From: Candidatus Helarchaeota archaeon | Lineage (GTDB): Archaea > Asgardarchaeota > Lokiarchaeia > Helarchaeales > RDOG01 | DNA length: 64,000 nt | Assembly: GCA_019058315.1 (NCBI GenBank) | Contig: JAHPZH010000001.1 | Location: 503,536 to 567,535, forward strand | Direction of reading: 5' to 3' | Shown here: piece by piece, positions 23,882 through 50,742 of the stretch | Position numbering within the stretch: position 1 is the first letter of the stretch | Layout: every line of letters begins with the position of its first letter | Notes under the pieces: model-generated | What the model saw: only the letters and a program-made list of their open reading frames with translations | Database searches by the model: none | Told to the model about the DNA's origin: nothing | Program-made: the position numbers and the translations under genes

Positions 23882-25048
23882 TCATTCATATCTGAGTGCT
23901 TCAACTGGTTTCACGCTAGCTGCACGCCATGAAGGATATAAGGCCGAGATAAAACCAATCCCGATGCTCATAGAGATGCCTATTACGAATAACCACCATG
24001 GAAATTCATAAGGAAGCCCAAATGTCGATATTTTACCTATAAATTCGGAAAGTATTGTAACCCCAAGAACTGATAGAAGACAACCTAATATACCACCAAT
24101 AGCAGACATGATTAATGCTTCGGTTATAAAAATTTGAAGGACTTGACTTCTTTGGCCACCAATAGATTTAATCATTCCAATAGCTCTTGTCTCTTCCAAT
24201 ACTCTTGTCATCGTTGAATTCATAATTTGCATCGCTCCTACCATTAGAGTAATCCCTGCCATCACACCTAATACTATATTAATAAGTTGGATTACAGAAT
24301 TAGCCATTGCCAAAATTTGTTCAGATTCTATAACCTCTGCCTTAGGAAAAGCATCTCGAATAACTTCAGCTACACTATGTGCAAATGCATTATCATCAAC
24401 TTCAACGAAGATCATTTGAACATTATTTGTTGCCATAATGTTTTGTAAACCATCTAAAGTCATAATTATCGATGAATCAGTAGTTGTTTCACCAGTTGAT
24501 GATAAAAAACCAACAATTTCTAAGACAACTGTGCCTGAAGAAATAAGACCTGATAAAACTATTTTATCTCCAATCCTTTTACCTAAAGACAACTTGAGAC
24601 CATATCCACATACACATTTATCATAATCTTCAGGCCTATTCTTTAATTCTCTCCCTTCTATCACCTGTACAGGAACCATTAATGTTAATTTGCTAGGATC
24701 AATCCCTACAACCGGAGCAAATTCCCCTTCAACGGTCATGAAATTCGTAATTATTCCTGCTGTATCAGTAACATGAGGTATTGAAGCAATAATATTGACT
24801 GTTTCTTCAGGTATTTCGGGTCGTGTACCTCGCATTTCCGAAGTTACGATTATAGGGGCACCAACAAAAGCTCTAAGAATATCCTCTATTTGTGTTCTCA
24901 TCCCTAAGGTGATTGAAATTAAAGATACAAAGGTTGTGATGCCCACCAAAATACCAATTATTGTTAAAGCTGACCGTAACTTTCGTTTGCTCATACTGCG
25001 GAATGCCATTAGTAAGGAGAATTTAAATAGTCTCGTTCGACGACCCAT
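23882..25048 (-). CDS. MacB/FtsX-type ABC permease
   Basis: KLRSALTIIGILVG, extracytoplasmic domain, IMNS...V.E.TR.IG..KSIG, YPSWRAASVKPVEALRYE. Confidence 0.93.
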   Translation of the reverse strand: MGRRTRLFKFSLLMAFRSMSKRKLRSALTIIGILVGITTFVSLISITLGMRTQIEDILRAFVGAPIIVTSEMRGTRPEIPEETVNIIASIPHVTDTAGIITNFMTVEGEFAPVVGIDPSKLTLMVPVQVIEGRELKNRPEDYDKCVCGYGLKLSLGKRIGDKIVLSGLISSGTVVLEIVGFLSSTGETTTDSSIIMTLDGLQNIMATNNVQMIFVEVDDNAFAHSVAEVIRDAFPKAEVIESEQILAMANSVIQLINIVLGVMAGITLMVGAMQIMNSTMTRVLEETRAIGMIKSIGGQRSQVLQIFITEALIMSAIGGILGCLLSVLGVTILSEFIGKISTFGLPYEFPWWLFVIGISMSIGIGFISALYPSWRAASVKPVEALRYE

Positions 25049-39034: not shown

Positions 39035-40090
39035 CTATTCTTCAGACTTTTTATTTTCTTCAAAATTATAAAGAATTTTACCTATATTATAAAATACTTC
39101 ATCAACATTTTCCCCATTTAACGCCGAAGTTTCGATGTATTCATACTTCAATTGCTTTCCTAGTTTTATTCCATCTTCTTTAGTTACTTTCCTCTCATCA
39201 CTCATATCTGATTTATTACCAACGATATATCCCAAGATTTTTTCATCTTTTAAAAATCTATTTATATCGGAATTCCATTTTGCTACATTTCCAAAGGTTT
39301 TTGGAGAAGTTAAATCAAAAATCAACAGTTGAGCATCTGCACCTCTATAAAAATGTTTTCTCATTTTTTGAAATTTTGTTTGTCCTGCAAGATCCCAGAT
39401 TATCAATTCAATGTTTGTATTTTTATAATTAATTATTTTTTCGGTAATATTAACTCCAATTGTACTGATATATGTTCTTTTAAAAGCATGATCAGTAAAT
39501 CTTAAAATTATCGAAGTTTTTCCAACACTAGGATCTCCACAAACAATAATTTTAAATCTATATTTTGATTTTATAACCTCCTCCTCATCCAAAATAGGAA
39601 AAGACTCCTCTTCATCAATAAAAATTTCTTGACTTTTTAAATCTTCTAATAAATTTATTATTTTGGCATGAAATTTTTTCAATTCTTCTTGAATTTGATT
39701 TTTATCCGCAGTTTCTTCTTCGATATCAATGATTTTATCAATTGTCTCATTAAAAATAACTTCAAAATGATTCAAGTATTTATAAAAAATCGAATCATTT
39801 ACTTCGTTATAGAGCAAAGTCAAGCTACTTTCCGCAATCCCACCTCTTCTAGATTTATTCTTAATCTCCAATAATCGAACTAAACCTTTCAAATTGATAG
39901 ATGGAAAAGGTAAGATTGCTATAGATTCTGAACTACGGTGATCCTCACCAATCATAATGTTGATTGTTTTTAAACTCACTAGATTTTTTATTTTTATGGA
40001 TATATCTTGTGGATAGTATGCAAGAGCCGTAGGCCCCAGTTTATCCTCAAACTGAGAATAAATGACCCCAATTATTAATTCTTCTGTCAA
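39035..40090 (-). CDS. Rab-like small GTPase with N-terminal longin/uDENN-like domain (paralog 1)
   Basis: GDPSVGKTS, YISTIGV, WDLAGQ, NKSD, ETSAL; the ~175-aa N-terminal domain starts YSQFEDKLGP. Confidence 0.9.
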   Translation of the reverse strand: MTEELIIGVIYSQFEDKLGPTALAYYPQDISIKIKNLVSLKTINIMIGEDHRSSESIAILPFPSINLKGLVRLLEIKNKSRRGGIAESSLTLLYNEVNDSIFYKYLNHFEVIFNETIDKIIDIEEETADKNQIQEELKKFHAKIINLLEDLKSQEIFIDEEESFPILDEEEVIKSKYRFKIIVCGDPSVGKTSIILRFTDHAFKRTYISTIGVNITEKIINYKNTNIELIIWDLAGQTKFQKMRKHFYRGADAQLLIFDLTSPKTFGNVAKWNSDINRFLKDEKILGYIVGNKSDMSDERKVTKEDGIKLGKQLKYEYIETSALNGENVDEVFYNIGKILYNFEENKKSEE

Positions 40091-40114
40091 TTCTAATCTT
40101 TTATTTAACTCAAG

Positions 40115-41161
40115 TTATTTTCTCTTTAATAATTCTCCTAAATTAAAGAAAGCATCATCAATATTCTCACCTGTTAAAGCAGAAGTCTCAATGTAACCAA
40201 GATTTAACTTTTTCGCAATTTTTAAAGCCACATCTTCATCTATTTTTCGATTTTCAACTAAATCATTCTTATTTCCAACAATAAAACCCTTAATTTTTGT
40301 TTTTAAATAGGATTCAACATCTTTATACCAATCTGGAATGCTATTTAATGTTTTTGGGCGTGTTAAATCAAATACTAATAGTACACCATCCGCTCCTTGA
40401 TAGAAATGTTTTCGCATTCTTGAAAATTTGCTTTGTCCAGCTATATCCCAAAGAATGTATACAATTGAGATATTTTTTTCTTTAGATAAATCTATTTTTT
40501 TTTCTGAGATATTAACTCCAATAGTCGGTATATAAGTTCGTTTAAATGCCCTATCAGTAAATCTTAATATAGTAGAAGTTTTCCCAACACCAGGATCTCC
40601 ACAAACAATAATTTTGAACCTAAAAGACTTCCCTACTACCACTTTCTCAGGAACAGCTTCGGGGAAGGCTTCTCCCTCCAGAGCCTCCATCTCAGTTTCT
40701 CGTAATTCATCTAAAATCGTATTTAATTTTATATAAAACTCTTCCATCTCTTTCAAAATGCGATTTTTATCTGCATTTGATTCCTCTAATTCAATAACTT
40801 TTTCAACAGTTTCATTAAATACAGACTCAAAATTTGGCATATATTTATAAAAAATTAGATCATTAGCCTCATTGAATAAAACTGTTATAGATGCATCAAC
40901 AACTCCCCCTCTTCGTGTTTCATCTTTGATTTCAATCGCTTTAACTAAACCTTTAAGATTATTTGATGGAAACGGAATTACGGCTAAGGACTTAGGAGTT
41001 TCTCCTTTTTCTCCTGATAAAATATTAATAGTTTTTAGACTAACAGTGTTTCTAACATCCTCTGCAATATCAGAGGGATGCCACACTATTGCTCTAGGAC
41101 CGAGTTTCCCATGAAATTTTGAATAAATTCCACCTTTAATAAGATTTTTTTCCATTTTCAA
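40115..41161 (-). CDS. Rab-like small GTPase with N-terminal longin/uDENN-like domain (paralog 2)
   Basis: GDPGVGKTS, YIPTIGV, WDIAGQ, NKND, ETSAL; the N-terminal domain starts YSKFHGKLGP. Confidence 0.9.
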   Translation of the reverse strand: MKMEKNLIKGGIYSKFHGKLGPRAIVWHPSDIAEDVRNTVSLKTINILSGEKGETPKSLAVIPFPSNNLKGLVKAIEIKDETRRGGVVDASITVLFNEANDLIFYKYMPNFESVFNETVEKVIELEESNADKNRILKEMEEFYIKLNTILDELRETEMEALEGEAFPEAVPEKVVVGKSFRFKIIVCGDPGVGKTSTILRFTDRAFKRTYIPTIGVNISEKKIDLSKEKNISIVYILWDIAGQSKFSRMRKHFYQGADGVLLVFDLTRPKTLNSIPDWYKDVESYLKTKIKGFIVGNKNDLVENRKIDEDVALKIAKKLNLGYIETSALTGENIDDAFFNLGELLKRK

Positions 41162-41878: not shown

Positions 41879-43045
41879 TTGACAATTATGTCCCCTTATA
41901 GTTACGGTGACATACCAGATGATTTTCCATCAAAGGTTTTTACTCCATTAGGTGAACATCTCTTCAAGTTATTCAAAGAATTTGGACACGAATATTTTAT
42001 TGGCAAAACTACAACTTCTGAAGTAGGTTTTTTTAGTAAAGCTTCGGAGTTTTTAAGCGAGAAATTTAAAACTGCTGTCAATACGGCTAAAAAAGTCATT
42101 AGTGGTGAGATCCAACATCCTGAAAATGTATTAACAACTTGGTTTTTCCCGCCAGTTATGTATGTTAGATCCGATTTACAAATGGGAAGTACAAAACTCA
42201 TTTATGGGAATTCAACTGATATTACTTTCATATGTATTAATGATGCTAACTATGAACCAGAATTGCTAATTAACGGACATATGGAAGATGGAGTTCCTGT
42301 AGATTATTGGTACATTTTGGGTGAGGATGAAGTCTTTGAAAGAAGACATATTAAATATGGTACGAGATTGCGTGAAATTCCTAGTAAAACAAAAGATTTT
42401 GTAAAAGGTGGATTTCAAATTTTAGACATTCTAAAAGATGTTAGAAACGAGAGAAGCCCACAGTGGTCTGATTCTGCTTATTCGATGTGCATGTTGTGGA
42501 TAACTGGAGCAATTAATATGTTTGTAGAACCCTCTAGTTGGAATGCCTTGGCAGAAATCTGGGATGGAGTAAATGCCAAAAAGATTTATGGTAGACCTGA
42601 TTACTTTTATTGCTATGTTCCTTGGCCACCCGTCATGAATTTATTATTTGCAATGGGTCGACCCGAATTCACAATGCGTCTAACCGGATTATTAACAAAT
42701 CATCAGCTATTTGTTAATGGATTTGAACCAGAGATGATAAATTTTTATAAAGACGTAGTTCCTGAAGTATGGGATTGGTTAATAAATAATATGAAGGAAA
42801 GTGGAGTCCCGACTCCAAGGCAGACTTTAGGTTGCACACCACCTGATCTAAAAGATAAAAAGAAGTTCAAGAACTTAGAATTCGATTGGATCTACCCAGA
42901 AGGAGCTAGAGTTAAGCCTTTTGAATGGGATCTCGCAGATGAAGAAGTATTTAGCGGTATATTTACCGACATATCACACGAAACTCCAGCAGAACAATTT
43001 TATGGTAAAGAACATATAGTTTCTAAGGGAATTGGTGAGGAATAA
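41879..43045 (+). CDS. conserved hypothetical protein (paralog at the window start); candidate subunit of the split dikinase system
   Basis: 388-aa soluble ORF rich in W/P/Y; its C-terminus is homologous to 3..332. Confidence 0.85.
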   Translation: MTIMSPYSYGDIPDDFPSKVFTPLGEHLFKLFKEFGHEYFIGKTTTSEVGFFSKASEFLSEKFKTAVNTAKKVISGEIQHPENVLTTWFFPPVMYVRSDLQMGSTKLIYGNSTDITFICINDANYEPELLINGHMEDGVPVDYWYILGEDEVFERRHIKYGTRLREIPSKTKDFVKGGFQILDILKDVRNERSPQWSDSAYSMCMLWITGAINMFVEPSSWNALAEIWDGVNAKKIYGRPDYFYCYVPWPPVMNLLFAMGRPEFTMRLTGLLTNHQLFVNGFEPEMINFYKDVVPEVWDWLINNMKESGVPTPRQTLGCTPPDLKDKKKFKNLEFDWIYPEGARVKPFEWDLADEEVFSGIFTDISHETPAEQFYGKEHIVSKGIGEE

Positions 43046-43104
43046 TAATAATTTAAAAATATAAAAAATATAATTATGAAAGATAAATATTTGGAGAAAT
43101 TAAA

Positions 43105-43722
43105 TTGAAAACCGCAGGAGAAGTATTGGGAGAATTATTGATAGGCTGTGTTAGAGCACTTACACCTGAAGAACGAGAAAAACTTTATGTTAAACAAAAA
43201 TTAAACGGTAAAATAGTCGAATTTATTTTACCAGACGAACATGAAGCATGTGTTGTCTATTTTGTGGAAGATCCAGTAACTAGATCTTGGCTATCTTATA
43301 AAAGTTATCCAACACCTAGAGTTAAATGTAAGAATTGCAAATGGAAAGGTTTATGGTCCGATCTAAAAGTAGAAGAAGAGGAAATGGATCTAACGGGTAA
43401 AGTGAGCGATTTAGAGCTATTTCACCCTGTTAAAAAAACAGTAATTGAAAAATGCACTATATGTGGTGGTACAAAATTAAAGTATGAAGATTGGAAATTT
43501 GAAAAAGCTGATCTAGTAATTAAAGGTACATTTGCAGACATTGGAGCAGTAGCAGAGGTTACTTTAGGAGGATTTTTTCATAGAATGAGACAATTATTCA
43601 AAGTAATGGGAATGATGATGAAAAAAGAAGTAAGTATTAAACCACTACGTAAGCTTGGAATGGGTATATTAGTTTCGAAGTTAATTACTGGAAAAGTATC
43701 CGAAGATTATAAAGAAGATTAA
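43105..43722 (+). CDS. SCP2-like lipid-binding protein with inserted zinc ribbon
   Basis: KADLVIKGTFADI...MMMKKEVSIK resembles the SCP2 C-terminal half; internal CKNC...CTIC insertion. Confidence 0.55.
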   Translation: MKTAGEVLGELLIGCVRALTPEEREKLYVKQKLNGKIVEFILPDEHEACVVYFVEDPVTRSWLSYKSYPTPRVKCKNCKWKGLWSDLKVEEEEMDLTGKVSDLELFHPVKKTVIEKCTICGGTKLKYEDWKFEKADLVIKGTFADIGAVAEVTLGGFFHRMRQLFKVMGMMMKKEVSIKPLRKLGMGILVSKLITGKVSEDYKED

Positions 43723-43872
43723 ATTGGTAAAATTTTAAATATTTTTTTTATTTTATTTTTATAATAGGTATTTGATTAAAAGTGGGAGATTTTAAATAAT
43801 ATTTTCATAATAGTAATAAATAATACTAGAAATAGTAAATGTAATATAGTGGTGGGTAACTTAATAATTTAG

Positions 43873-44766
43873 GTGAGTTTAGATTTGGCAACAGATTGGT
43901 ACGGTATTAAAAAACAAATTTCTAGTACGATGATGGATTTTGGATTTCGTGTTTATGTATCAATAGCTGATGTCTTTGGAAATCCAAAAATTATGGACGA
44001 AGAAATCGAACCTTTCAAAGATATAGTATGTAAATCAATTAAAATTAATAGTAATTATTTAAATATAGGCGATTATGCAATTCCAATTTCGTCTAAAAAC
44101 CTAATGATCTTTAAAATTTCGGAAAAAGCAGTTGTTGTGTTATTTGCAAATAAAGGAAATATTGCACAATTATTATCTTTTAAGAAAAATATAGATTATT
44201 TTGGTGAGCAAATAGAAAAATTACTAGAGGATATGGAAGCCCCAGAAGTAGAGGTTGAAGTGCCAACAGTAGTTGAGAAAGTTGAAAAAAAATTACCTAG
44301 ACAGATTCTTGGTAAAGAGCTTCCAATTTATACCCCAACTCTCAATAGAGAATTAGATAAAAAGGCAAAATTCACAATGGAAGAAATGCGCATTTTACAT
44401 ATGTGTGATGGTAATAGGGGTTTCTACGAGATTGCCCACGAGGCAAATCAACCTGAGAGTTTTTTATTTGATTTCATAGTTAAAAATATAAAGAAAAAAT
44501 GGCTTGGTCCAAAAGCTTATCCCATTATTGTTCAATGTCCTGATTGTGATTTAACACATTATTTATTTATTCATGAAGATTTATTTGAGCTAGATCCGGA
44601 CCTACTTTCAATTTTAATTCGGTCTGAACGATGCAATCATGAATATGTAGTCTTTCTTAATAAAAAATTAAAATATGAATTACAATCTTTCGGTTATTTT
44701 ACACCATTTCAACAAGATAAATTTATGAAAAAGCTAGGGGAGCACTATTATACTATAATTTCTTAA
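43873..44766 (+). CDS. hypothetical multidomain protein (roadblock/longin-like, wHTH, Zn-binding)
   Basis: N-terminal alpha/beta domain; ILHMCDGNRGFYEIA HTH-like motif; CPDC...CNH. Confidence 0.65.
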   Translation: MSLDLATDWYGIKKQISSTMMDFGFRVYVSIADVFGNPKIMDEEIEPFKDIVCKSIKINSNYLNIGDYAIPISSKNLMIFKISEKAVVVLFANKGNIAQLLSFKKNIDYFGEQIEKLLEDMEAPEVEVEVPTVVEKVEKKLPRQILGKELPIYTPTLNRELDKKAKFTMEEMRILHMCDGNRGFYEIAHEANQPESFLFDFIVKNIKKKWLGPKAYPIIVQCPDCDLTHYLFIHEDLFELDPDLLSILIRSERCNHEYVVFLNKKLKYELQSFGYFTPFQQDKFMKKLGEHYYTIIS

Positions 44767-44810
44767 ACTTCACTTATTAACTTTTTTTTTAAATAAATAA
44801 TATCAATTTT

Positions 44811-46052
44811 TCATTCAACAATATAATAATAAGTAGGATCTACTTTTCTTTGCTTTTTTCGTCTTGAAAACCGCCCAAACCATGGATGTACTCCCATTGG
44901 AAAATTTTTAAACCTTGGTATATAATTTTTAGTCTTTTCAGGTATTTCCCAATTATAATCTAACTCTCTTCCTGCAAAAGCTGTGAAAATAGCTAAAAAA
45001 TTCGAATATAGTGATGCTCCGCTGAGTAAAAGGGTTTCATAATCCCAATTTGCGAATTTTAGATACAATTCAGTCATAGCATCTTGAGTGTATTTTCCAA
45101 CTTGTTCGAAAGTGCTAAATTCGACATTATAAACCTCACCCATCTTTTCAGGATATTTTTGCTCTATAGGTCGTAATAATTCACGATGCCATAAGCCGAT
45201 TGACGTTATTTTACTAGATAATTCTGGAGGGTCTGCAAACATAGTTCCCCAATCATTGAATTCAATTGTTTTCATATTTTTTAATGTATATCCAATTGCT
45301 AGGTTAGGTATTGGAGATTTTGTTTCAGTTTCAGAATGCTCGAATGGGGCTTTTCGCCCTGCATAAATTTCATCTCCTGTATAAAAAAACATAAATTCTT
45401 TAAATAATAAATATTCTCCCGTATCTAATTTATATGGTCCATGTTCAAAAATTCCTGCTCTACATTCGCATTTATCTAAAAAGTTCCAGTTCGTCATTGT
45501 TGCAACTGTTCTCTTAAATTTTTTAATCTGTTCTTTGGTTGGCTTGAACATATCTCCTCGCAATTTCTCAATTAAAGAATTATCTAAGATACGCATATTA
45601 TTATCTTCACTTTGATCTACAAGGAGCTTTTTATCATTTCTATAATAAGGATTTAAATTACGAAAAAAGTCTAATAAAAACTTAGTTTGTTCTTTCTTTT
45701 CTTCAGGTTCTTTTTCTGGTCCACCCATATCGTAAATACATTGTCCCCTCCCATGAAGATATAACATAGCAAAAGATTGAAATGCCAGACCATTTAAAGC
45801 TCCAATAATTGTCTTGCATTTAGGTCCAATTTCTCGTGGGTCACATCCATGATCAACCATATCTTTTACAATATTATATTGGAAATTTTGGTCGTAAAGT
45901 TGGTGGCATGCAACACAAATATAAGTTGAAACTGGAAAAATTTCAGATCCTACTTCGAGTCGCCCTGCCATCAAAGCTCTGTGCACATTGTTTGACATTA
46001 ATTGAATTATTTTATTTGCTTCATCTGTTGTAATATTACTTTTCCAAACCAT
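44811..46052 (-). CDS. conserved hypothetical protein, paralog A; candidate subunit of the split dikinase system
   Basis: 413 aa; aligns end to end with 46624..47856 (YICxACHQLYDQ, DPREIGPKCKT, DKCxCRAGIFEHGPYK, DPTYYYIV). Confidence 0.88.
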   Translation of the reverse strand: MVWKSNITTDEANKIIQLMSNNVHRALMAGRLEVGSEIFPVSTYICVACHQLYDQNFQYNIVKDMVDHGCDPREIGPKCKTIIGALNGLAFQSFAMLYLHGRGQCIYDMGGPEKEPEEKKEQTKFLLDFFRNLNPYYRNDKKLLVDQSEDNNMRILDNSLIEKLRGDMFKPTKEQIKKFKRTVATMTNWNFLDKCECRAGIFEHGPYKLDTGEYLLFKEFMFFYTGDEIYAGRKAPFEHSETETKSPIPNLAIGYTLKNMKTIEFNDWGTMFADPPELSSKITSIGLWHRELLRPIEQKYPEKMGEVYNVEFSTFEQVGKYTQDAMTELYLKFANWDYETLLLSGASLYSNFLAIFTAFAGRELDYNWEIPEKTKNYIPRFKNFPMGVHPWFGRFSRRKKQRKVDPTYYYIVE

Positions 46053-46072
46053 ATAATCACATCTTATTATTA

Positions 46073-46585
46073 TTAAGGAAATTTATTATATTTTGACCAA
46101 ATATTGGGATTTGCACTAAAAAATAACGGAAATACGACAAGAATTATAATTAAAACAATTATTAAACCTGGTAAGATTCCTTTTAATATTAAAGATTTAG
46201 TATCAATTTCTGTTTGATCTTTATAAACAAAGTAAAAGATATAAATCCCTGTAATTATCATAAAAACATGTGCAATTTGTGCTTGAATCATCTCAATTGA
46301 GAAGGGAATTGGAACAAAGAATCCACCGATAGCAAATGTAAAAAGTAAAATAGAAACTGCAATTAAATAATATGCAACTGTTTTGTTCGGTCTATAAATA
46401 TATATAATTAAACCTATAGACGTAGCAACCATAGTTGGAGAACAAATATTCATAATTAACCATTCAAGGACTGTAAAATGTAGAATTAATAAATGACCAA
46501 TAGCTGGAAATATTGTATTGACTACTAATGCAATTACCAAGATTATACCAATCTTCTTATTGAAAATTTCTTTAGTTTGACTCAA
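46073..46585 (-). CDS. hypothetical membrane protein
   Basis: About 5 TM helices; NICSP and AHV motifs; TTG start with GGTGA RBS. Confidence 0.75.
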   Translation of the reverse strand: MSQTKEIFNKKIGIILVIALVVNTIFPAIGHLLILHFTVLEWLIMNICSPTMVATSIGLIIYIYRPNKTVAYYLIAVSILLFTFAIGGFFVPIPFSIEMIQAQIAHVFMIITGIYIFYFVYKDQTEIDTKSLILKGILPGLIIVLIIILVVFPLFFSANPNIWSKYNKFP

Positions 46586-46623
46586 AAATTTTCACCAAAT
46601 AAGAAATAAATAAATTTGATTTA

Positions 46624-47856
46624 TTAATCAACAATATAATAATAAGTTGGGTCTATTTTTCTTTTCTTTTTACCTCTCGTAAATCTTGCTATAAATGGAT
46701 GTGCTCCAAGTGGATATTTTTGAAATTTGGGAATGTAATCATATGTTTTTTTAGGTATTTCCCAATTATATGGAATTTCTGTAAAAATATTAAATAAAGC
46801 TAAAAAATTTGTATAGAGATTCACCCCTGCCATTAATCGTTTAGTATAATCCCATTCCGCGATTTTTATATACAATTCATTTAATGCTGATTGTGCATAT
46901 TTTCCTACTTGCTCAAAAATATCAAAAGAGACTGGTTCAATTTTTCCCATTTTATCTGGATATCTTTGTTTTGTTGGCAATAATAATTCTCGATTCCAAA
47001 ATCCTATCGAGGTTATTTTATCAGAAAAATCGGTTGGATCAATGAATACAGTTCCCCAATCTGTGAATTTAACAGATTTAATATCTTTAACGGTATAAGC
47101 AATAGAAATATTTGAAATCGGAGATTTAGATTTGGTCTCAGATAGACCCAATACTCTCCTCCTCCCTGGATAAAGCTCTTCTCCAGTATATAAAAATAGG
47201 AATTCTTTAAATATCAATAATTCTCCAGAATCCATTTTATAGGGGCCATGTTCGAATATCCCAGCACGACAATCACATTTATCCAAATAGTTATGAGTAG
47301 TTAATATAGCAAGTGTTCTTTTAAATTTCTTAATCTGTTCTTTATTAACTCCAAACATGTCTTCTCTTAATTTTTCAATTAGATCTTTATCTAAAATACG
47401 CATATTTTCGTCTTCACTTTGATCTGCCAAGAGTAGACCATCATTTCGATAATTGGGATTTAAATATTGAAAAAAATCTAAAATAAATTTGGTTTCTTCT
47501 TTTTTTTGTTTAGGCTCATGTTCTGCTCCTCCCCAGTCAAAAATCTTTTGTGCACGACCATGTAAATAAAGCATTGCCAATGATTGAAAACTTAAACCAT
47601 TCAAAAATGCACATAATGTTTTACATTTAGGTCCTATCTCTCTAGGATCACAACCATAGTCTACCATTTTCTTGATAATTTCATATTGAAATGATTGGTC
47701 ATAGAGTTGATGACAAGCAATACATATATATGTAGTAACTGGAAATAATTGCGATTCTATAGCTTCTCTCCCGAAAAGTCCTTTACGGACATTTTCTGAC
47801 ATTATATATATTAATTCATTAGCTCTTTCTGTTGTTATAGTGCTCTTCCAAATCAT
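46624..47856 (-). CDS. conserved hypothetical protein, paralog B; candidate subunit of the split dikinase system
   Basis: 410 aa; paralog of 44811..46052. Confidence 0.88.
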   Translation of the reverse strand: MIWKSTITTERANELIYIMSENVRKGLFGREAIESQLFPVTTYICIACHQLYDQSFQYEIIKKMVDYGCDPREIGPKCKTLCAFLNGLSFQSLAMLYLHGRAQKIFDWGGAEHEPKQKKEETKFILDFFQYLNPNYRNDGLLLADQSEDENMRILDKDLIEKLREDMFGVNKEQIKKFKRTLAILTTHNYLDKCDCRAGIFEHGPYKMDSGELLIFKEFLFLYTGEELYPGRRRVLGLSETKSKSPISNISIAYTVKDIKSVKFTDWGTVFIDPTDFSDKITSIGFWNRELLLPTKQRYPDKMGKIEPVSFDIFEQVGKYAQSALNELYIKIAEWDYTKRLMAGVNLYTNFLALFNIFTEIPYNWEIPKKTYDYIPKFQKYPLGAHPFIARFTRGKKKRKIDPTYYYIVD

Positions 47857-47896
47857 AAATCTCTCTCAAAAAATGAAAAAGATATAGATGTTAAAA

Positions 47897-48895
47897 TTAT
47901 TCCCGCGTTGATATTAAATATTCAGATATTCCATCGCCTTCTTTCCCCTCGCAACTAAAGGATACAATTTGTTCAAAGACTTCAGTTTTCCCTTTTGGAG
48001 AAGGTAATGGGAGGTGTATAGATTCTATAGTATTGGAAACTAAGGTAGTTTTATTTCCTTTCTCATCTGTTAACAAAAATGTTGATGAAACTGGTGTTTT
48101 TCCATCTTCTTTCGTTTTTGTGGAAACATCTACACTTTTTATATGGATATTTCCAACTTTTGTAGATATAAAACCTGTTTGTAGAATTTTTCCTAAAACC
48201 TCTATTCTGGCAATATTTATGGTTTTATCTTCAAATTGTGCCGAGAGCCAATTCCAACGATCTATATTCACCCAATCCCGGGTACCCCAGCTATGATCCC
48301 GGTGTCCAAGGCAATCAATATTTCTAGTTTCCCCAGTTTTCTTTATTACTAAAGTACCCTTTGCTTTCATCCCTTGTTCATAATGTTGCTGAGCTGCGAC
48401 ATCTAACATTTCAACACCATATTTTTCAAGACTCTCTAAAGGGTCTTCATGTGATAGATAGTTGAAAACTGGAAATCTTGCATCAAATGTTATATCTAAC
48501 TTAAATTTTCTGTCCTCAAATTTAACTTTCCATTGTTTCATAGGTTTTGTGCAAATATAATTCAATTTTTTATCATATTCCCAATTATCGGGCATAGTAT
48601 CAATAGCGGGTTGATTTAAATATGCATTAGGGTTTCCATCAACTATTAACACTGCCATTATAGTAGACTTTTTATCAAACATTTCCATAGACCATCGCGT
48701 AAATAAAAAAACGTTATTTTTACGATCAATGAAATTAAAATACCAACTTTCATTATGATTTTCTGGAAATTCCCCAAAATCATGTTTATATTCATCTTCT
48801 TCGGAGATATCTACTCCTTTTTTAATATATTCTAAAAGTTTGCTATCAACTTCAATCCCTTTTTCTTTGAGATATTTTAAGACTTTATCTATCAT
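47897..48895 (-). CDS. CrtC/AttH-like double beta-barrel (lipocalin-like) protein
   Basis: NESWYFNF, HYEQ..K.KGTL, GHRDHSWGTRDW and WNWLS are typical of hydroxyneurosporene-synthase/tocopherol-cyclase-like barrels. Confidence 0.65.
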   Translation of the reverse strand: MIDKVLKYLKEKGIEVDSKLLEYIKKGVDISEEDEYKHDFGEFPENHNESWYFNFIDRKNNVFLFTRWSMEMFDKKSTIMAVLIVDGNPNAYLNQPAIDTMPDNWEYDKKLNYICTKPMKQWKVKFEDRKFKLDITFDARFPVFNYLSHEDPLESLEKYGVEMLDVAAQQHYEQGMKAKGTLVIKKTGETRNIDCLGHRDHSWGTRDWVNIDRWNWLSAQFEDKTINIARIEVLGKILQTGFISTKVGNIHIKSVDVSTKTKEDGKTPVSSTFLLTDEKGNKTTLVSNTIESIHLPLPSPKGKTEVFEQIVSFSCEGKEGDGISEYLISTRE

Positions 48896-49072
48896 TTTAG
48901 ATTGCTCCTATCTTTATCTAATCAAAAAAAAATATTCATTCTTGCTCTAGATTGTAATTTTAACATTTAAGAATTTAGATATTATTATTATTTTACTAAT
49001 TATAAAATTAATAGAAATTATTATATAGAGTTCAAACCAAAATGTTTACTATATCTAAAAGGAGACTAAAAA

Positions 49073-49237
49073 ATGGATGATTATCGTGCACTTTTTATCG
49101 TATTCATGTCTTCAATAGCAGTCTTAGGGATTGTGGCAATAGTATATATCGTATTTTTCAAAAATAATCCCCTTAATCTATTAAGTGATGAAGCTATAAA
49201 CATAATTTTAATAGCTTTATTGTCGCAAGGTAAATAA
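49073..49237 (+). CDS. 54-aa membrane microprotein (not in the ORF track)
   Basis: AAAGGAG RBS, then ATG; MDDYRALFIVFMSSIAVLGIVAIVYIVFFKNNPLNLLSDEAINIILIALLSQGK*. Confidence 0.65.
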   Translation: MDDYRALFIVFMSSIAVLGIVAIVYIVFFKNNPLNLLSDEAINIILIALLSQGK

Positions 49238-49411
49238 TTTATTAATTCACTATTTTTTAATTAATCTTAATGTATAATAATAAGAAATAACTTTATCATT
49301 TGAGTTCAGATGATTTTCTAACTTAATTTGATAAATAAAAAAGTAATTAAATATCAATTTGGTTTATTCTTCAAATAATTAAATGAAAAAAAAATAAAAG
49401 GTGTAATATTT

Positions 49412-49792
49412 TTGGGATATAAGCTAATTGGAAATGGATTAAGTGTCTCTAGTAAAAAAGAAGTTGAGGGGATATTTAGAGCAATCCATACGGTTCAAGA
49501 TGTTATTAAACTAATTAAAGGAACTGGGGATGATGCAGCTGAAGGAAAAATATGCTGGGTGGAACAAGCGGGTGCAACAACTTTAGGTCCAATTTTAAGC
49601 CGTATTTCTGGAGTAGTTTGTCAAACAGGTTCTTCAGGCTCTCATATTGCTATAGTTTCAAGAGAGTATGAATTGCCAGCCCTTATGTCTTGTGTAATAA
49701 AAGGAAATCTTGATGATATTAATGGTAAAAAAGTCAAAATAAGAACTATAGAAGACAGTAACCATGGAGAATTGTTATTGTGGGAAGAGTAA
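49412..49792 (+). CDS. free-standing PEP-utilising enzyme mobile (phosphohistidine swivel) domain
   Basis: GVVCQTGSSGSHIAIVSREYELPA matches the G..SHxAIxxRExxxP signature; the His codon is at 49643. Confidence 0.88.
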   Translation: MGYKLIGNGLSVSSKKEVEGIFRAIHTVQDVIKLIKGTGDDAAEGKICWVEQAGATTLGPILSRISGVVCQTGSSGSHIAIVSREYELPALMSCVIKGNLDDINGKKVKIRTIEDSNHGELLLWEE

Positions 49793-50742
49793 GAATTCAA
49801 AAATTATATGAATTTATTGAAAAAAAAGATTTTAACATTTTAGGGGGAAAAGGAGCGCATTTAGCTAAACTTTTAGATTTAAAAATGCCAGTTCCCTCAG
49901 GGTTTATATTACCAACTACTTGTTTTAAACTTTTTTTAGAAAAATCGGATTATTTTCAAAGAATCATGTCCATTCTTCAAAATCCGATTAATTTTGAAAA
50001 TATCCTTGAAGTCTCTAAACAGCTTCAAGACTCTATTATGTATTCAAAATTTCAAGAAAAATTTTTAATTGCGGTTAAGAATGCATGGGAAGAATTATCC
50101 AAGTATACAAATATTGACTATGTTGCAGTTAGATCCTCTGCAACTGTAGAAGATTTAGAAACTGCTTCATTTGCGGGACAAGCCGAAACATTTTTATGTA
50201 TAGATAATTTAGATGACCTTTTAAAATCCATTAAACAATGTTGGGCTTCTTTATATTCACCAAGTGCTTTAATGTATTGCTTAACAAATAATATTCCAGT
50301 AGAAAAAGTACAAATGGGTGTTATAGTTCAAAAAATGGTTAATTCAGATATTGCTGGGGTTATGTTCACTGCAGATGTGGTAAATAAAGATCCAAGTAAA
50401 ATTCTGATTAATATAACATGGGGATTCGGTGAAACTATAGCGGATGGAAAAGTAGATGCAGATGAAATATTAGTAGATAAAGAAACCTTAGAAATTCTAA
50501 ATATTAGAATTGGTAAAAAAGAATTAATGAGTATTAGAAATGTAAATGCTTGTGGAACTAGAATTATTGAAACTCCACACAATAAAAGAGATTGCTGTTG
50601 CATAACTGAGCAAAAAATTATTGAAATAGCTAAAATTGGATTGGAAATCGAAAAGAAATTTGACCATTATCAAGACATTGAATTTGCTATTGAAAATAAT
50701 GAAATCAAAATTTTACAATCTCGGCCAGTAACTACGATGTAA
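49780..50742 (+). CDS. free-standing PEP synthase/PPDK N-terminal ATP-grasp domain
   Basis: LGGKGAHL, VPSGF, VAVRSSATVED..ASFAGQ.ET, CWAS, VQKMV..AGVMFT, WG.GE, QDIEFA, ILQSRPVT*. Confidence 0.92.
   Translation: MGRVRIQKLYEFIEKKDFNILGGKGAHLAKLLDLKMPVPSGFILPTTCFKLFLEKSDYFQRIMSILQNPINFENILEVSKQLQDSIMYSKFQEKFLIAVKNAWEELSKYTNIDYVAVRSSATVEDLETASFAGQAETFLCIDNLDDLLKSIKQCWASLYSPSALMYCLTNNIPVEKVQMGVIVQKMVNSDIAGVMFTADVVNKDPSKILINITWGFGETIADGKVDADEILVDKETLEILNIRIGKKELMSIRNVNACGTRIIETPHNKRDCCCITEQKIIEIAKIGLEIEKKFDHYQDIEFAIENNEIKILQSRPVTTM

What the first reader, a model, noticed from the sequence alone, without database searches (positions are those of the whole stretch)
41879..50742. Candidate new system: modular, split PEP-synthase-like phosphotransferase with paralogous unknown subunits and lipid-binding partners
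Seen: a 126-aa free-standing phospho-His swivel protein overlaps a 320-aa free-standing ATP-grasp protein. Their order (His, then ATP-grasp) is the reverse of PEP synthase, and no pyruvate-binding TIM barrel is in the window. Divergent from them is an operon: CrtC/lipocalin-like barrel, 410-aa unknown B, 5-TM protein, 413-aa unknown A. Nearby are a 388-aa unknown (with a paralog elsewhere) and an SCP2-like protein. Known: rifampin phosphotransferase, PigC/RedH and phenylphosphate synthase reuse ATP-grasp and His-swivel domains with a different acceptor-binding domain, to transfer the beta-phosphate of ATP to a hydroxyl or carbonyl; phenylphosphate synthase is multi-subunit. Inference: the ~400-aa proteins are the missing, interchangeable acceptor-binding subunits. 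This would give a shared kinase core plus mobile His carrier activating several hydrophobic substrates (isoprenoid/ether-lipid alcohols, sterol-like or aromatic compounds), with the SCP2-like and barrel proteins handling substrate. The substrate is not determinable from sequence.
Basis: partly seen in the sequence, partly recalled or inferred. Interest (0 to 1): 0.88.

Follow-up and report, generated by a model that had tools for sequence, protein, structure and literature searches.

The report
Split dikinase with phosphate-lyase partner
An Asgard archaeon carries a conserved, uncharacterised four-gene enzyme set: a PEP-synthase-like kinase split into three proteins, one with no recognisable fold relative, plus a relative of a phosphate-eliminating lyase, which together probably remove water from a greasy alcohol at the cost of ATP.

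Summary
A 126-aa phospho-His swivel gene overlaps a 320-aa PPDK_N ATP-grasp gene. Divergent from them lie a DUF7064/7065 barrel, two 63%-identical 410/413-aa unknowns and a small membrane protein.

The central inference is supported: the 410-aa family is the swivel's partner.
- In 201 Asgard genomes, all 49 with this swivel also have the 410 family, always within 6 kb.
- 43 of the 49 also have the stand-alone ATP-grasp beside it.
- Bacteria (Gordonia, Burkholderia) encode swivel::410-like fusions next to PPDK_N genes and the same barrel.
- A co-fold passes (ipSAE 0.68; best control 0.00) and places the catalytic His in the interface.
- The genome has no free pyruvate-binding barrel.

The barrel is not just a lipid binder. 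Its closest solved relative by sequence, and top Foldseek hit, is 25-phosphosteroid lyase, with the probable catalytic Asp conserved. A second barrel subfamily sits beside RPH-like single-chain dikinases in 26 genomes.

Best reading: an AMP-forming kinase plus phosphate lyase, giving ATP-driven dehydration (or cyclisation) of a hydrophobic, probably isoprenoid, alcohol. The substrate is unknown.

The 388-aa family (33 paralogues, unrelated to the 410 family), the "SCP2-like" protein and the membrane protein are not shown to belong.

The parts
49780..50742 (+). Stand-alone ATP-grasp (nucleotide-binding) subunit of the dikinase, 320 aa
   Evidence: PF01326 PPDK_N E 4.5e-85. Best PDB sequence matches are PEP synthases and rifampin phosphotransferase, E 1e-57 to 1e-46. 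A stand-alone orthologue lies beside the swivel in 43 of 49 swivel-positive Asgard genomes.
49412..49792 (+). Stand-alone phospho-histidine swivel carrier, 126 aa; catalytic His78
   Evidence: PF00391 E 1.9e-8. H78 is invariant in alignment A2. It is the only stand-alone swivel in the genome. It overlaps the ATP-grasp gene by 13 nt.
48896..49411 (.). 516-bp divergent intergenic region between the barrel operon and the swivel/ATP-grasp pair (presumed promoters; not tested)
   Evidence: ORF coordinates only.
47897..48895 (-). AttH-fold barrel, homologue of 25-phosphosteroid lyase; proposed phosphoester lyase, 332 aa
   Evidence: DUF7064 and DUF7065 above cut-off. Model pLDDT 88.5. Foldseek top hit is 25-PSL 9g4c, E 2.7e-13, TM 0.68/0.63. 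VIA Z 24.9, rmsd 4.2 over 284 residues. The A3 profile's only significant PDB sequence hit is 25-PSL, E 5.7e-6, with D34..H38, YFN and RD200xSWGxR conserved.
46624..47856 (-). 410-aa protein B: proposed acceptor-binding/phosphotransfer subunit; no recognisable fold relative found
   Evidence: No Pfam or NCBIfam hit. Model pLDDT 86, with no PDB or Atlas match. Gene neighbourhood, phylogenetic profile, fusions and co-fold.
46073..46585 (-). 170-aa multi-pass membrane protein inside the operon; membership uncertain
   Evidence: TMEM164 at 21.4 bits, below the 25-bit cut-off. Single copy in the genome. No homologue in any related locus.
44811..46052 (-). 413-aa protein A: paralogue of B (63% identity), second proposed acceptor subunit
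41879..43722 (+). 388-aa unknown plus 205-aa Zn-ribbon-containing unknown: neighbours that form their own recurring pair; not shown to belong to the module
   Evidence: 33 and 4 family members in the genome; adjacent pairs at three loci. hhalign against the 410 family gives probability 0.2%. Homologues sit next to the swivel only in L005 and L031.

Best explanation
This is a conserved four-protein enzyme module.

Steps 1-3 are a PEP-synthase-type dikinase split into three polypeptides.
1. The 320-aa ATP-grasp subunit binds ATP.
2. The free 126-aa swivel takes the beta-phosphate on His78, releasing AMP and Pi, as in PEP synthase, rifampin phosphotransferase and PpsAB/HpeHI.
3. The phospho-swivel docks on a 410-aa protein with no recognisable fold relative. 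That protein binds the acceptor and catalyses phosphoryl transfer to a hydroxyl of a hydrophobic, probably isoprenoid-type, substrate.

Step 4 is the barrel encoded next to it, a homologue of 25-phosphosteroid lyase. It eliminates the phosphate to give an alkene, or a carbocation that is trapped. The net reaction is an ATP-driven, irreversible dehydration.

This genome has one ATP-grasp/swivel pair but five 410-family genes and four barrels. This suggests a shared kinase core serving several acceptor/lyase pairs.

Shown here: gene linkage, co-occurrence, domain fusions, the predicted swivel-410 interface, and barrel homology to the lyase.
Inferred: ATP to AMP chemistry, the hydroxyl acceptor, the elimination step, and the substrate class.
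For: 1. Domain identities: PPDK_N E 4.5e-85; PEP-utilizers E 1.9e-8 with invariant His.
2. Neighbourhood: the barrel lies next to the 410 gene in nearly all of 26 Asgard loci that have flanking sequence. Swivel plus ATP-grasp are adjacent in 11 or more of them. L022 carries a tandem swivel-410-swivel-410. Starting instead from distant ATP-grasp homologues (36-47% identity), L036 and L037 show the same four genes and L035 the ATP-grasp, swivel and barrel.
3. Phylogenetic profile over 201 Asgard genomes: 410 family in 52, swivel in 49. All 49 swivel-positive genomes are 410-positive. The three 410-only genomes are 72-88% complete. The swivel is on the same contig within 6 kb in 49 of 49 and within about 500 bp in 39. 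A stand-alone ATP-grasp is adjacent in 43 of 49. Strong barrel hits sit beside the 410 genes.
4. Rosetta-stone fusions: three bacterial proteins of 516-777 aa have an N-terminal swivel followed by a 410-like domain. One is next to a PPDK_N gene. In Burkholderia ambifaria the order is barrel | swivel, 726-aa 410-like, PPDK_N+swivel. Gordonia has three 410-like genes, swivels and a barrel-like gene.
5. Co-fold of swivel with B410: ipSAE 0.68 (runs 0.61/0.72/0.68), best of 3 controls 0.00. That mark was reached by 58 of 80 solved complexes and 2 of 110 mismatched pairs. The runs share at least 88% of contacts, and partner pLDDT is at least 88. The interface holds swivel residues 73-78, including His78, and B410 segments 29-40 and 179-195, which carry or abut invariant R30, F38-V40, K179 and C196/R197.
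6. Barrel: closest solved relative by sequence, and the top Foldseek hit, is 25-phosphosteroid lyase. The product-complex entry 9g4c differs from 9fzn by D to N at the Asp that aligns with the barrel's invariant D200.
7. Independent recurrence of the dikinase+barrel pairing: a second barrel subfamily lies 0-3 kb from ~900-aa RPH-like single-chain dikinases in 26 of the same genomes.
8. Thermodynamic rationale: tertiary steroid phosphoesters are as energy-rich as ATP's beta,gamma bond, so the ADP-forming kinase 25-HSK is fully reversible (PMC8449060). An AMP-forming dikinase would make the step irreversible.
9. Context: other 410/barrel loci in this genome are flanked by GGR-like and CrtI-like flavoenzymes, an acyl-CoA dehydrogenase, an AMP-ligase and MFS transporters. 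Bacterial loci carry ECH, SDR, P450, SCP2 and PKS genes.
Against: - No biochemical data exist for any member, and the substrate is unknown.
- The barrel's fold is shared at almost equal Z (23-26) with AttH, kievitone hydratase and fungal Diels-Alderases. The lyase assignment therefore rests on a modest sequence match (E 5.7e-6, about 15% identity) plus gene context.
- My reading that the D to N change marks a catalytic residue is an inference from two PDB sequences. The paper on the structure was not available.
- The 410 model has no fold relative that would show a binding pocket, so 'acceptor-binding' is inferred by analogy.
- Three of the four other 410/barrel loci in this genome have no kinase genes nearby, so those copies might work without phosphorylation.
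- Six swivel-positive genomes, all of one family (f20), showed no stand-alone ATP-grasp at E<=1e-40.
- Genomes in the profile are related, so the counts overstate independence.
- The co-fold used my own alignments, so its calibration holds only roughly.
Confidence: 0.55

Rival explanations
1. Hydratase first, then kinase. The barrel acts like CrtC or kievitone hydratase and adds water to an isoprenoid double bond. The split dikinase then phosphorylates the new alcohol. This pulls the hydration forward and yields a phosphate ester as the end product, for example a lipid head-group precursor.
For: The barrel's fold matches kievitone hydratase (Z 23.4) and AttH (Z 26.3) about as well as the lyase. 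Atlas neighbours include tocopherol-cyclase-family clusters, which protonate isoprenoid double bonds. The gene linkage evidence fits either order of steps.
Against: By sequence, the only significant solved relative is the lyase, with its RD-x-SWG-x-R motif conserved. The kinase-plus-lyase pair is an established reaction logic (PMC8449060, PMC11061730). I know of no hydratase-plus-kinase pair of this type.
Confidence: 0.15
2. A phenol-type aromatic kinase like PpsAB/HpeHI/CreHI. The module phosphorylates a phenolic compound to start anaerobic aromatic catabolism, and the barrel has an unrelated side role.
For: Two-component dikinases with a free ATP-grasp subunit are known for phenol, cresol and hydroxyacetophenones (PMC12167813). 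The swivel's best NCBIfam hits are PRK08296-type proteins. HgdAB-like genes lie next to the module in L007. Biotin carboxylase genes are in the bacterial loci L041 and L042.
Against: In those systems the acceptor domain is homologous to the rifampin-binding domain of RPH and carries the swivel at its C-terminus (PMC12167813). The 410 family shows no sequence match to RPH or any other PDB chain and no fold match, and the swivel is N-terminal in the fusions. No UbiD-type or biotin carboxylase was seen beside the module in the Asgard loci read. This model does not explain the near-obligate barrel.
Confidence: 0.1
3. A phosphorelay to a protein. The 410-aa protein is itself the phospho-acceptor (on invariant C196 or H386), as in a PTS-like relay, and regulates or energises the barrel rather than phosphorylating a small molecule.
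For: Swivel domains pass phosphate to proteins in PTS enzyme I. The 410 family has one invariant Cys and one invariant His. The predicted interface is extensive, about 100 contacts.
Against: C196 abuts the interface and H386 is not listed in it. The closest relatives of this ATP-grasp are small-molecule dikinases. The lyase homology of the barrel implies a small phosphorylated intermediate.
Confidence: 0.08
4. No functional link. The swivel and ATP-grasp are remnants or a split form of ordinary PEP synthase, and the neighbouring genes are there by coincidence.
For: The ATP-grasp matches PEP synthase models strongly.
Against: No free PEP/pyruvate TIM barrel exists in the genome, and a full-length 878-aa enzyme is present. 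Co-occurrence is 49 of 49, and fusions exist.
Confidence: 0.02

Closest known systems
Two-component small-molecule dikinases PpsAB (phenylphosphate synthase), CreHI and HpeHI
   Same: They have a free-standing PPDK_N ATP-grasp subunit and a separate acceptor-side component. A phospho-His swivel shuttles the beta-phosphate of ATP to a hydroxyl, with ATP going to AMP + Pi (PMC12167813).
   Different: Here there are three polypeptides, not two: the swivel is a protein of its own (or N-terminal in the bacterial fusions). The acceptor protein is a different family with no detectable similarity to the RPH-like substrate domain of HpeH/PpsA. A lyase-like barrel is an obligate neighbour in place of a carboxylase.
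Rifampin phosphotransferase (RPH) and PRK06241-type single-chain dikinases
   Same: The same ATP-grasp and swivel chemistry with a swapped third domain. The window's ATP-grasp matches RPH at E 2e-46. RPH-like ~900-aa proteins in other Asgard genomes also sit next to a DUF7064/7065 barrel.
   Different: RPH is one chain in the order ATP-grasp, rifampin-binding domain, swivel. The A1 profile does not hit the RPH-like Asgard protein.
25-hydroxysteroid kinase plus 25-phosphosteroid lyase of Sterolibacterium denitrificans (ATP-dependent dehydration of a tertiary alcohol)
   Same: The logic is kinase then phosphate-eliminating lyase. Among solved structures, the window's barrel is closest by sequence, and in Foldseek's ranking, to the lyase, with motif conservation.
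   Different: That kinase is an ADP-forming APH-type phosphotransferase, is fully reversible, and is not encoded next to the lyase (PMC8449060). Here the kinase is an AMP-forming split dikinase encoded beside the barrel. Barrel identity to 25-PSL is only about 15%. The substrate is unlikely to be a steroid in an Asgard archaeon.
PEP synthase / pyruvate phosphate dikinase
   Same: ATP-grasp and swivel domains, and the presumed His-phosphate mechanism.
   Different: There is no PEP/pyruvate TIM barrel. The gene order is reversed and the enzyme is split. The genome has a separate full-length enzyme.
AttH-fold enzymes: AttH (2ich), kievitone hydratase, CrtC/tocopherol cyclase relatives, fungal decalin-forming Diels-Alderases (Fsa2, Phm7, CghA)
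   Same: The same double-barrel fold, Z 23-26 over 270-293 residues. All handle hydrophobic substrates through carbocation-like or pericyclic chemistry.
   Different: None of them is detected by the barrel's sequence profile. None is known to be coupled to a kinase.

Membership tests
PEP synthase (pyruvate, water dikinase) | N-terminal PPDK_N ATP-grasp domain | tested here: met
   PF01326 E 4.5e-85; TIGR01418 residues 5-331 matched.
PEP synthase (pyruvate, water dikinase) | Phospho-His swivel domain with catalytic His | tested here: met
   PF00391 E 1.9e-8; H78 invariant. It is a separate protein.
PEP synthase (pyruvate, water dikinase) | C-terminal PEP/pyruvate-binding TIM barrel (PF02896) | tested here: not met
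   None in the window. The only genomic match lies inside the full-length 878-aa gene on C6. The genome is 94% complete.
Two-component phenolic dikinases (PpsAB/HpeHI/CreHI) | Stand-alone ATP-grasp subunit of about 40 kDa | tested here: met
   320-aa stand-alone PPDK_N protein.
Two-component phenolic dikinases (PpsAB/HpeHI/CreHI) | Acceptor subunit of ~70 kDa with the swivel at the C-terminus of the same chain | tested here: not met
   The swivel is a free 126-aa protein here and is N-terminal in the bacterial fusions.
Two-component phenolic dikinases (PpsAB/HpeHI/CreHI) | Acceptor domain homologous to the rifampin-binding domain of RPH | tested here: inconclusive
   The 410 profile does not hit RPH or any PDB chain. 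Fold searches give no clear match, and a missing fold match does not exclude a relationship.
25-phosphosteroid lyase-like enzymes (AttH fold) | AttH-type double-barrel fold | tested here: met
   Foldseek E 2.7e-13, TM 0.68/0.63 to 9g4c. VIA Z 24.9, rmsd 4.2, 284 aligned residues.
25-phosphosteroid lyase-like enzymes (AttH fold) | Sequence motifs shared with 25-PSL, including the Asp replaced in the product-complex entry | tested here: met
   Profile A3 against PDB: 9fzn E 5.7e-6. D34..H38, YFN and RD200xSWGxR are aligned, and 9g4c reads RN at that Asp. The catalytic role of the Asp is my inference.
25-phosphosteroid lyase-like enzymes (AttH fold) | Eliminates phosphate from a phosphoester | not testable with these tools
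   Needs an enzyme assay.
Pfam DUF7064 / DUF7065 | Score above the gathering cut-off | tested here: met
   52.0 bits against 24.7, and 32.0 against 27.
NCBIfam Rv3169 family (NF053593) | Score above the curated cut-off (150 bits) | tested here: not met
   46.9 bits. It is a distant relative only.
SCP2 sterol-carrier family (for ORF 43105-43722) | Match to PF02036 | tested here: not met
   No Pfam hit at E<=10 and no usable Atlas hit. The fold was not modelled.
TMEM164 (for ORF 46073-46585) | Score above the gathering cut-off (25 bits) | tested here: not met
   21.4 bits, E 2e-4.

The most novel reading that the evidence does not exclude
This is an unrecognised class of AMP-forming, ATP-dependent dehydratase/cyclase systems. 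A three-piece phospho-His dikinase uses an acceptor domain with no recognisable fold relative to activate tertiary or allylic isoprenoid alcohols as monophosphates. A dedicated AttH-fold lyase then ionises them, giving terpene-synthase-like carbocation chemistry without diphosphates. In Asgard archaea one kinase core would serve several acceptor/lyase pairs that remodel or degrade isoprenoid lipids. Bacteria would use the same module in polyketide/lipid pathways (Burkholderia) and in catabolism (Gordonia).
Probability: 0.35. Interest if true: 0.85.

Novelty: new variant of a known kind. Interest (0 to 1): 0.72.

Why it matters
- It defines a conserved, completely uncharacterised enzyme system. 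It occurs in about a quarter of the sampled Asgard genomes (49-52 of 201) and also in culturable bacteria (Burkholderia ambifaria, Gordonia otitidis), where it can be tested genetically.
- It adds a third kind of acceptor module, with no recognisable fold relative, to the PEP-synthase/RPH dikinase superfamily. It is also the first fully three-component form that I could find.
- It links dikinases to relatives of the recently solved 25-phosphosteroid lyase. This suggests that 'phosphorylate, then eliminate' is a widespread way to dehydrate unreactive alcohols without oxygen or radicals.
- In Asgard archaea it may bear on how their isoprenoid lipids are modified or how hydrophobic substrates are degraded.

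Tried and rejected
- 410-aa model against PDB (Foldseek best E 0.37), against 48,161 representative chains (best Z 5.2 over 67 residues) and against the ESM Atlas (TM below 0.3): no fold relative found. This does not prove a new fold, and single domains were not modelled separately.
- 410 profile against PDB sequences: nothing better than E 0.16.
- Idea that the 410-aa protein plus swivel is a split PRK08296/PpsA-type protein: no sequence support.
- Idea that the kinase partner resembles 25-HSK: that enzyme is an APH-type, ADP-forming kinase (PMC8449060), so only the reaction logic is shared.
- The 388-aa protein as a remote homologue of the 410 family: rejected (BLASTP; hhalign probability 0.2%). 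The Atlas features search gave nothing usable.
- ORF 23882-25048 as the 388-aa paralogue: rejected.
- SCP2 call for the 205-aa ORF: no hit.
- Literature: no paper holds 'DUF7064'. No paper links Asgard archaea to this module. The paper behind PDB entries 9fzn/9g2i/9g4c is not in the library.
- Expression: no RNA holder is listed for the stretch; the runs are sediment metagenomes only.
- tRNA scan of the window: none found.
- The two 876-879-aa PPDK_N proteins of this genome are a different architecture with no barrel beside them.

Full report
**What is there.** The window comes from a 5.8-Mb, 30% G+C Asgard archaeal genome. Its closest protein relatives are in MAGs labelled Hodarchaeota, Promethearchaeota and Helarchaeota.
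- On the plus strand, a 126-aa gene (49412-49792) overlaps a 320-aa gene (49780-50742) by 13 nt.
- On the minus strand, divergent across a 516-bp spacer, lie a 332-aa gene (47897-48895), a 410-aa gene (46624-47856), a 170-aa membrane protein (46073-46585) and a 413-aa gene (44811-46052). The gaps between them are 20-40 bp.
- Pfam names the 126-aa protein a PEP-utilizers swivel (E 1.9e-8) and the 320-aa protein a complete PPDK_N ATP-grasp (E 4.5e-85).
- The 332-aa protein is DUF7064+DUF7065, both above cut-off.
- The 410/413-aa proteins and the 388-, 205- and 297-aa neighbours have no significant family match.
- The two ~410-aa proteins are 63% identical.
- The swivel has the expected GSxGSH motif, and His78 is invariant in 14 homologues.

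**Is it an ordinary split PEP synthase?** No.
- The genome has one full-length 878-aa enzyme with ATP-grasp, swivel and PEP-utilizers_C domains on contig C6.
- That gene holds the only PEP/pyruvate TIM barrel in the 94%-complete genome.

**Is the 410-aa family linked to the kinase parts?** Four independent lines say yes.

1. Neighbourhoods.
   - In 26 loci from named Asgard MAGs, plus others fetched by exact protein look-up, the barrel is next to the 410-family gene wherever there is flanking sequence. The swivel and ATP-grasp are adjacent in at least 11 loci. One locus carries swivel-410-swivel-410 in tandem.
   - I then started from distant ATP-grasp homologues (36-47% identity). Two loci (L036, L037) again had swivel, ATP-grasp, a 385-392-aa member of the 410 family (profile E 1e-64 to 1e-78) and a barrel. 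The third (L035) had ATP-grasp, swivel and barrel, but its 466-aa neighbour did not match the 410 profile.
2. Phylogenetic profile. Among 201 genomes sampled across the phylum:
   - The 410 family is in 52 and this swivel subfamily (open frames 116-153 aa) is in 49.
   - All 49 swivel-positive genomes have the 410 family.
   - The three genomes with a 410 gene but no swivel are 72-88% complete.
   - In all 49 the two genes are on one contig within 6 kb, and in 39 within about 500 bp.
   - A stand-alone ATP-grasp is adjacent in 43 of the 49. The six without one at E<=1e-40 all belong to one family.
   - Strong barrel matches lie beside the 410 genes.
   - These genomes are related, so the counts are not independent events. 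They do span five families and 17 genera.
3. Fusions. A profile search of 1.8 billion representatives found 199 clusters, including 20-25%-identical relatives in bacteria.
   - Three of them (516, 575 and 777 aa) carry an N-terminal swivel fused to the 410-like domain. One of these is from Gordonia otitidis.
   - The 777-aa fusion is followed by a PPDK_N gene.
   - In Burkholderia ambifaria the order is barrel | swivel, 726-aa 410-like protein, PPDK_N+swivel, SDR, inside a polyketide-type cluster.
   - The Gordonia locus has three 410-like genes, each after or fused to a swivel, a PPDK_N+swivel gene and a weak barrel-like gene.
4. Co-fold. Swivel plus B410 scored ipSAE 0.68 (runs 0.61, 0.72, 0.68) against 0.00 for the best of three controls.
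   - That mark was reached by 58 of 80 solved complexes and 2 of 110 mismatched pairs.
   - The runs share at least 88% of contacts, and partner pLDDT is at least 88.
   - I supplied my own alignments, so the calibration holds only roughly.
   - The interface contains swivel residues 73-78, including His78. On B410 it contains residues 29-40, 179-195, 269-278 and 322-333, which carry or abut invariant R30, F38-V40, K179, C196/R197 and T269.
   - This supports binding but does not show it.

**What is the 410-aa protein?**
- It models confidently (pLDDT 86, pTM 0.86): an N-terminal helical part, a central sheet and C-terminal helices.
- It has no convincing match in the PDB by Foldseek (best E 0.37), by an exhaustive structural scan (best Z 5.2 over 67 residues) or in the ESM Atlas (TM below 0.3). 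Its profile hits no PDB sequence.
- It is therefore not detectably related to the rifampin-binding-type acceptor domain that PpsA, CreH and HpeH share with RPH (PMC12167813), nor to the PEP/pyruvate barrel.
- The CxxCH motif noted in other first-stage notes is not conserved. Invariant residues include R30, K179, C196, R197, H386 and D402.

**What is the barrel?**
- Its model (pLDDT 88.5) has the AttH fold.
- Foldseek's top five PDB hits are all 25-phosphosteroid lyase (9g4c, 9g2i, 9fzn; E 2.7e-13, TM 0.68/0.63).
- The structural aligner gives near-tied scores for AttH (Z 26.3), 25-PSL (Z 24.9, rmsd 4.2, 284 residues), fungal Diels-Alderases (Z about 24) and kievitone hydratase (Z 23.4). Fold alone therefore does not pick the chemistry.
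- Sequence does. The barrel profile's only significant PDB hit is 25-PSL (E 5.7e-6). The motifs D..H, YFN and R-D-x-S-W-G-x-R are aligned.
- The entry with bound product differs from the native entry by D to N at the Asp that aligns with the barrel's invariant D200. I read that as a catalytic residue, but I could not read the paper.

**Independent support for a dikinase-barrel partnership.** The barrel search turned up a second, weaker-scoring subfamily.
- In 26 of the 201 genomes it lies 0-3 kb from a ~900-aa single-chain protein.
- In one complete genome that protein is PPDK_N + middle domain + C-terminal swivel. It aligns full-length to the RPH-like PRK06241.1-3 model (below that model's curated cut-off). 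A 329-aa DUF7064/7065 barrel that keeps the RD motif follows it after 25 bp.
- Its middle domain is unrelated to the 410 family.
- So two different dikinase architectures have each been paired with this barrel family.

**Most likely mechanism.** ATP-grasp plus swivel generate His78-phosphate (ATP to AMP + Pi). This is inferred from the family (PMC12167813). The swivel docks on the 410-aa protein, which phosphorylates a hydroxyl of a bound hydrophobic substrate. The barrel then eliminates the phosphate.
- An AMP-forming kinase makes chemical sense. [quoted passage not shown]
- The genome has one swivel/ATP-grasp pair but five 410-family genes and four barrels. Three of those barrels lie directly beside a 410 gene and one lies 10 kb from one. 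This fits a shared core with several acceptor/lyase pairs.
- Context hints at isoprenoid or lipid substrates. GGR-like and CrtI-like flavoenzymes and an acyl-CoA dehydrogenase surround one paralogous locus, which is syntenic in a Helarchaeota MAG. AMP-ligase and MFS transporters flank the others. ECH, SDR, P450, SCP2 and PKS genes occur in bacterial loci.
- None of this identifies the substrate.

**What does not belong, or is unproven.**
- The 388-aa protein belongs to an Asgard-only family with 33 members in this genome, often in tandem. It is unrelated to the 410 family.
- It forms its own recurring pair with the 205-aa protein, at three loci in this genome.
- Homologues of the 388-aa protein lie beside the module in this window, at one paralogous locus, and in two or three Helarchaeota MAGs. 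With so many copies and related genomes, that is not enough to call it part of the module.
- The membrane protein is single-copy and has no homologue in the related loci searched. Its TMEM164 match is below cut-off.

**Novelty.**
- Dikinases with swapped acceptor domains are known, and so is kinase-plus-lyase dehydration.
- New here are the acceptor family with no recognisable fold relative, the fully three-component organisation, and the systematic coupling of dikinases to relatives of the phosphosteroid lyase.
- I found no paper describing any of this.
- I class it as a new variant of a known kind, with a real chance that the chemistry is broader than dehydration.

Noticed in passing
window 41879-43045; also 3-332 (C-terminal part of a copy); genome copies listed: The 388-aa unknown belongs to a family with 33 members in this genome, often in tandem pairs. 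It is found only in Asgard MAGs and has no Pfam match. A dense set of conserved charged residues (D114, D122, H134, E136, R155-R156-H157, D187-x-R-N-E-R192) suggests an enzyme.
   Followed up: partly
window 43105-43722; genome C9:135501-136109 and C2:195775-196332: The 205-aa protein with two CxxC pairs recurs next to 388-family genes at three loci, so the two form a module of their own. Its proposed SCP2 likeness was not confirmed.
   Followed up: partly
L055 2947-6756 (G012:C1:2159946-2163755) and 25 other Asgard genomes: An RPH-like single-chain dikinase of ~900-930 aa (PPDK_N, middle domain, C-terminal swivel) is immediately followed by a second subfamily of DUF7064/7065 barrel. This pair is not present in the window's own genome.
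   Followed up: partly
G000:C3:63532-66171 (L053 5533-8172, minus strand) and G000:C6:219976-222606 (L054 4977-7607): Two 876-879-aa proteins have PPDK_N at residues 307-684, a ~300-aa N-terminal extension and no detectable swivel. One lies next to two MinD/ParA-type NTPases with 4Fe-4S motifs.
   Followed up: no
L043 (Burkholderia ambifaria, CP113276.2 238096-260276): The bacterial version of the module (barrel, swivel, 726-aa 410-like protein, PPDK_N+swivel, SDR) sits between two KS-AT-ACP-TE polyketide synthases, KASIII genes and ACPs. This looks like an uncharacterised biosynthetic cluster in a culturable organism.
   Followed up: no
L041 and L042 (metagenome contig; Gordonia otitidis-like contig): Bacterial 410-like/swivel genes lie beside biotin carboxylase and BCCP, with HMGL-like carboxyltransferases and an APH-type kinase in L041 and AMP-ligases in both. 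The Gordonia locus also has an HpeH-like Rph_4th+swivel protein. This may be a phosphorylation-plus-carboxylation catabolic pathway.
   Followed up: no
L036 3093-3932 and 2853-3092; L037 9291-10154 and 8987-9277: In two distant Asgard loci the module is flanked by a pair of 4Fe-4S ferredoxin-domain proteins (279-287 aa and 79-96 aa).
   Followed up: no
window 39035-41161: Two tandem ~350-aa proteins have a C-terminal Ras/Rab-like GTPase domain and a ~175-aa N-terminal extension. Small GTPase genes also lie near the module in L003 and L005, probably just because they are common in Asgard genomes.
   Followed up: no
window 43873-44766: The 297-aa unknown has nine family members across the genome and no family match.
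   Followed up: no
L035 (GCA_035531115.1, labelled Candidatus Deferrimicrobium): A contig carrying the Asgard-type barrel, swivel and ATP-grasp genes (47-54% identical to the window's proteins) is filed under a bacterial MAG. This could be mis-binning or gene transfer.
   Followed up: no
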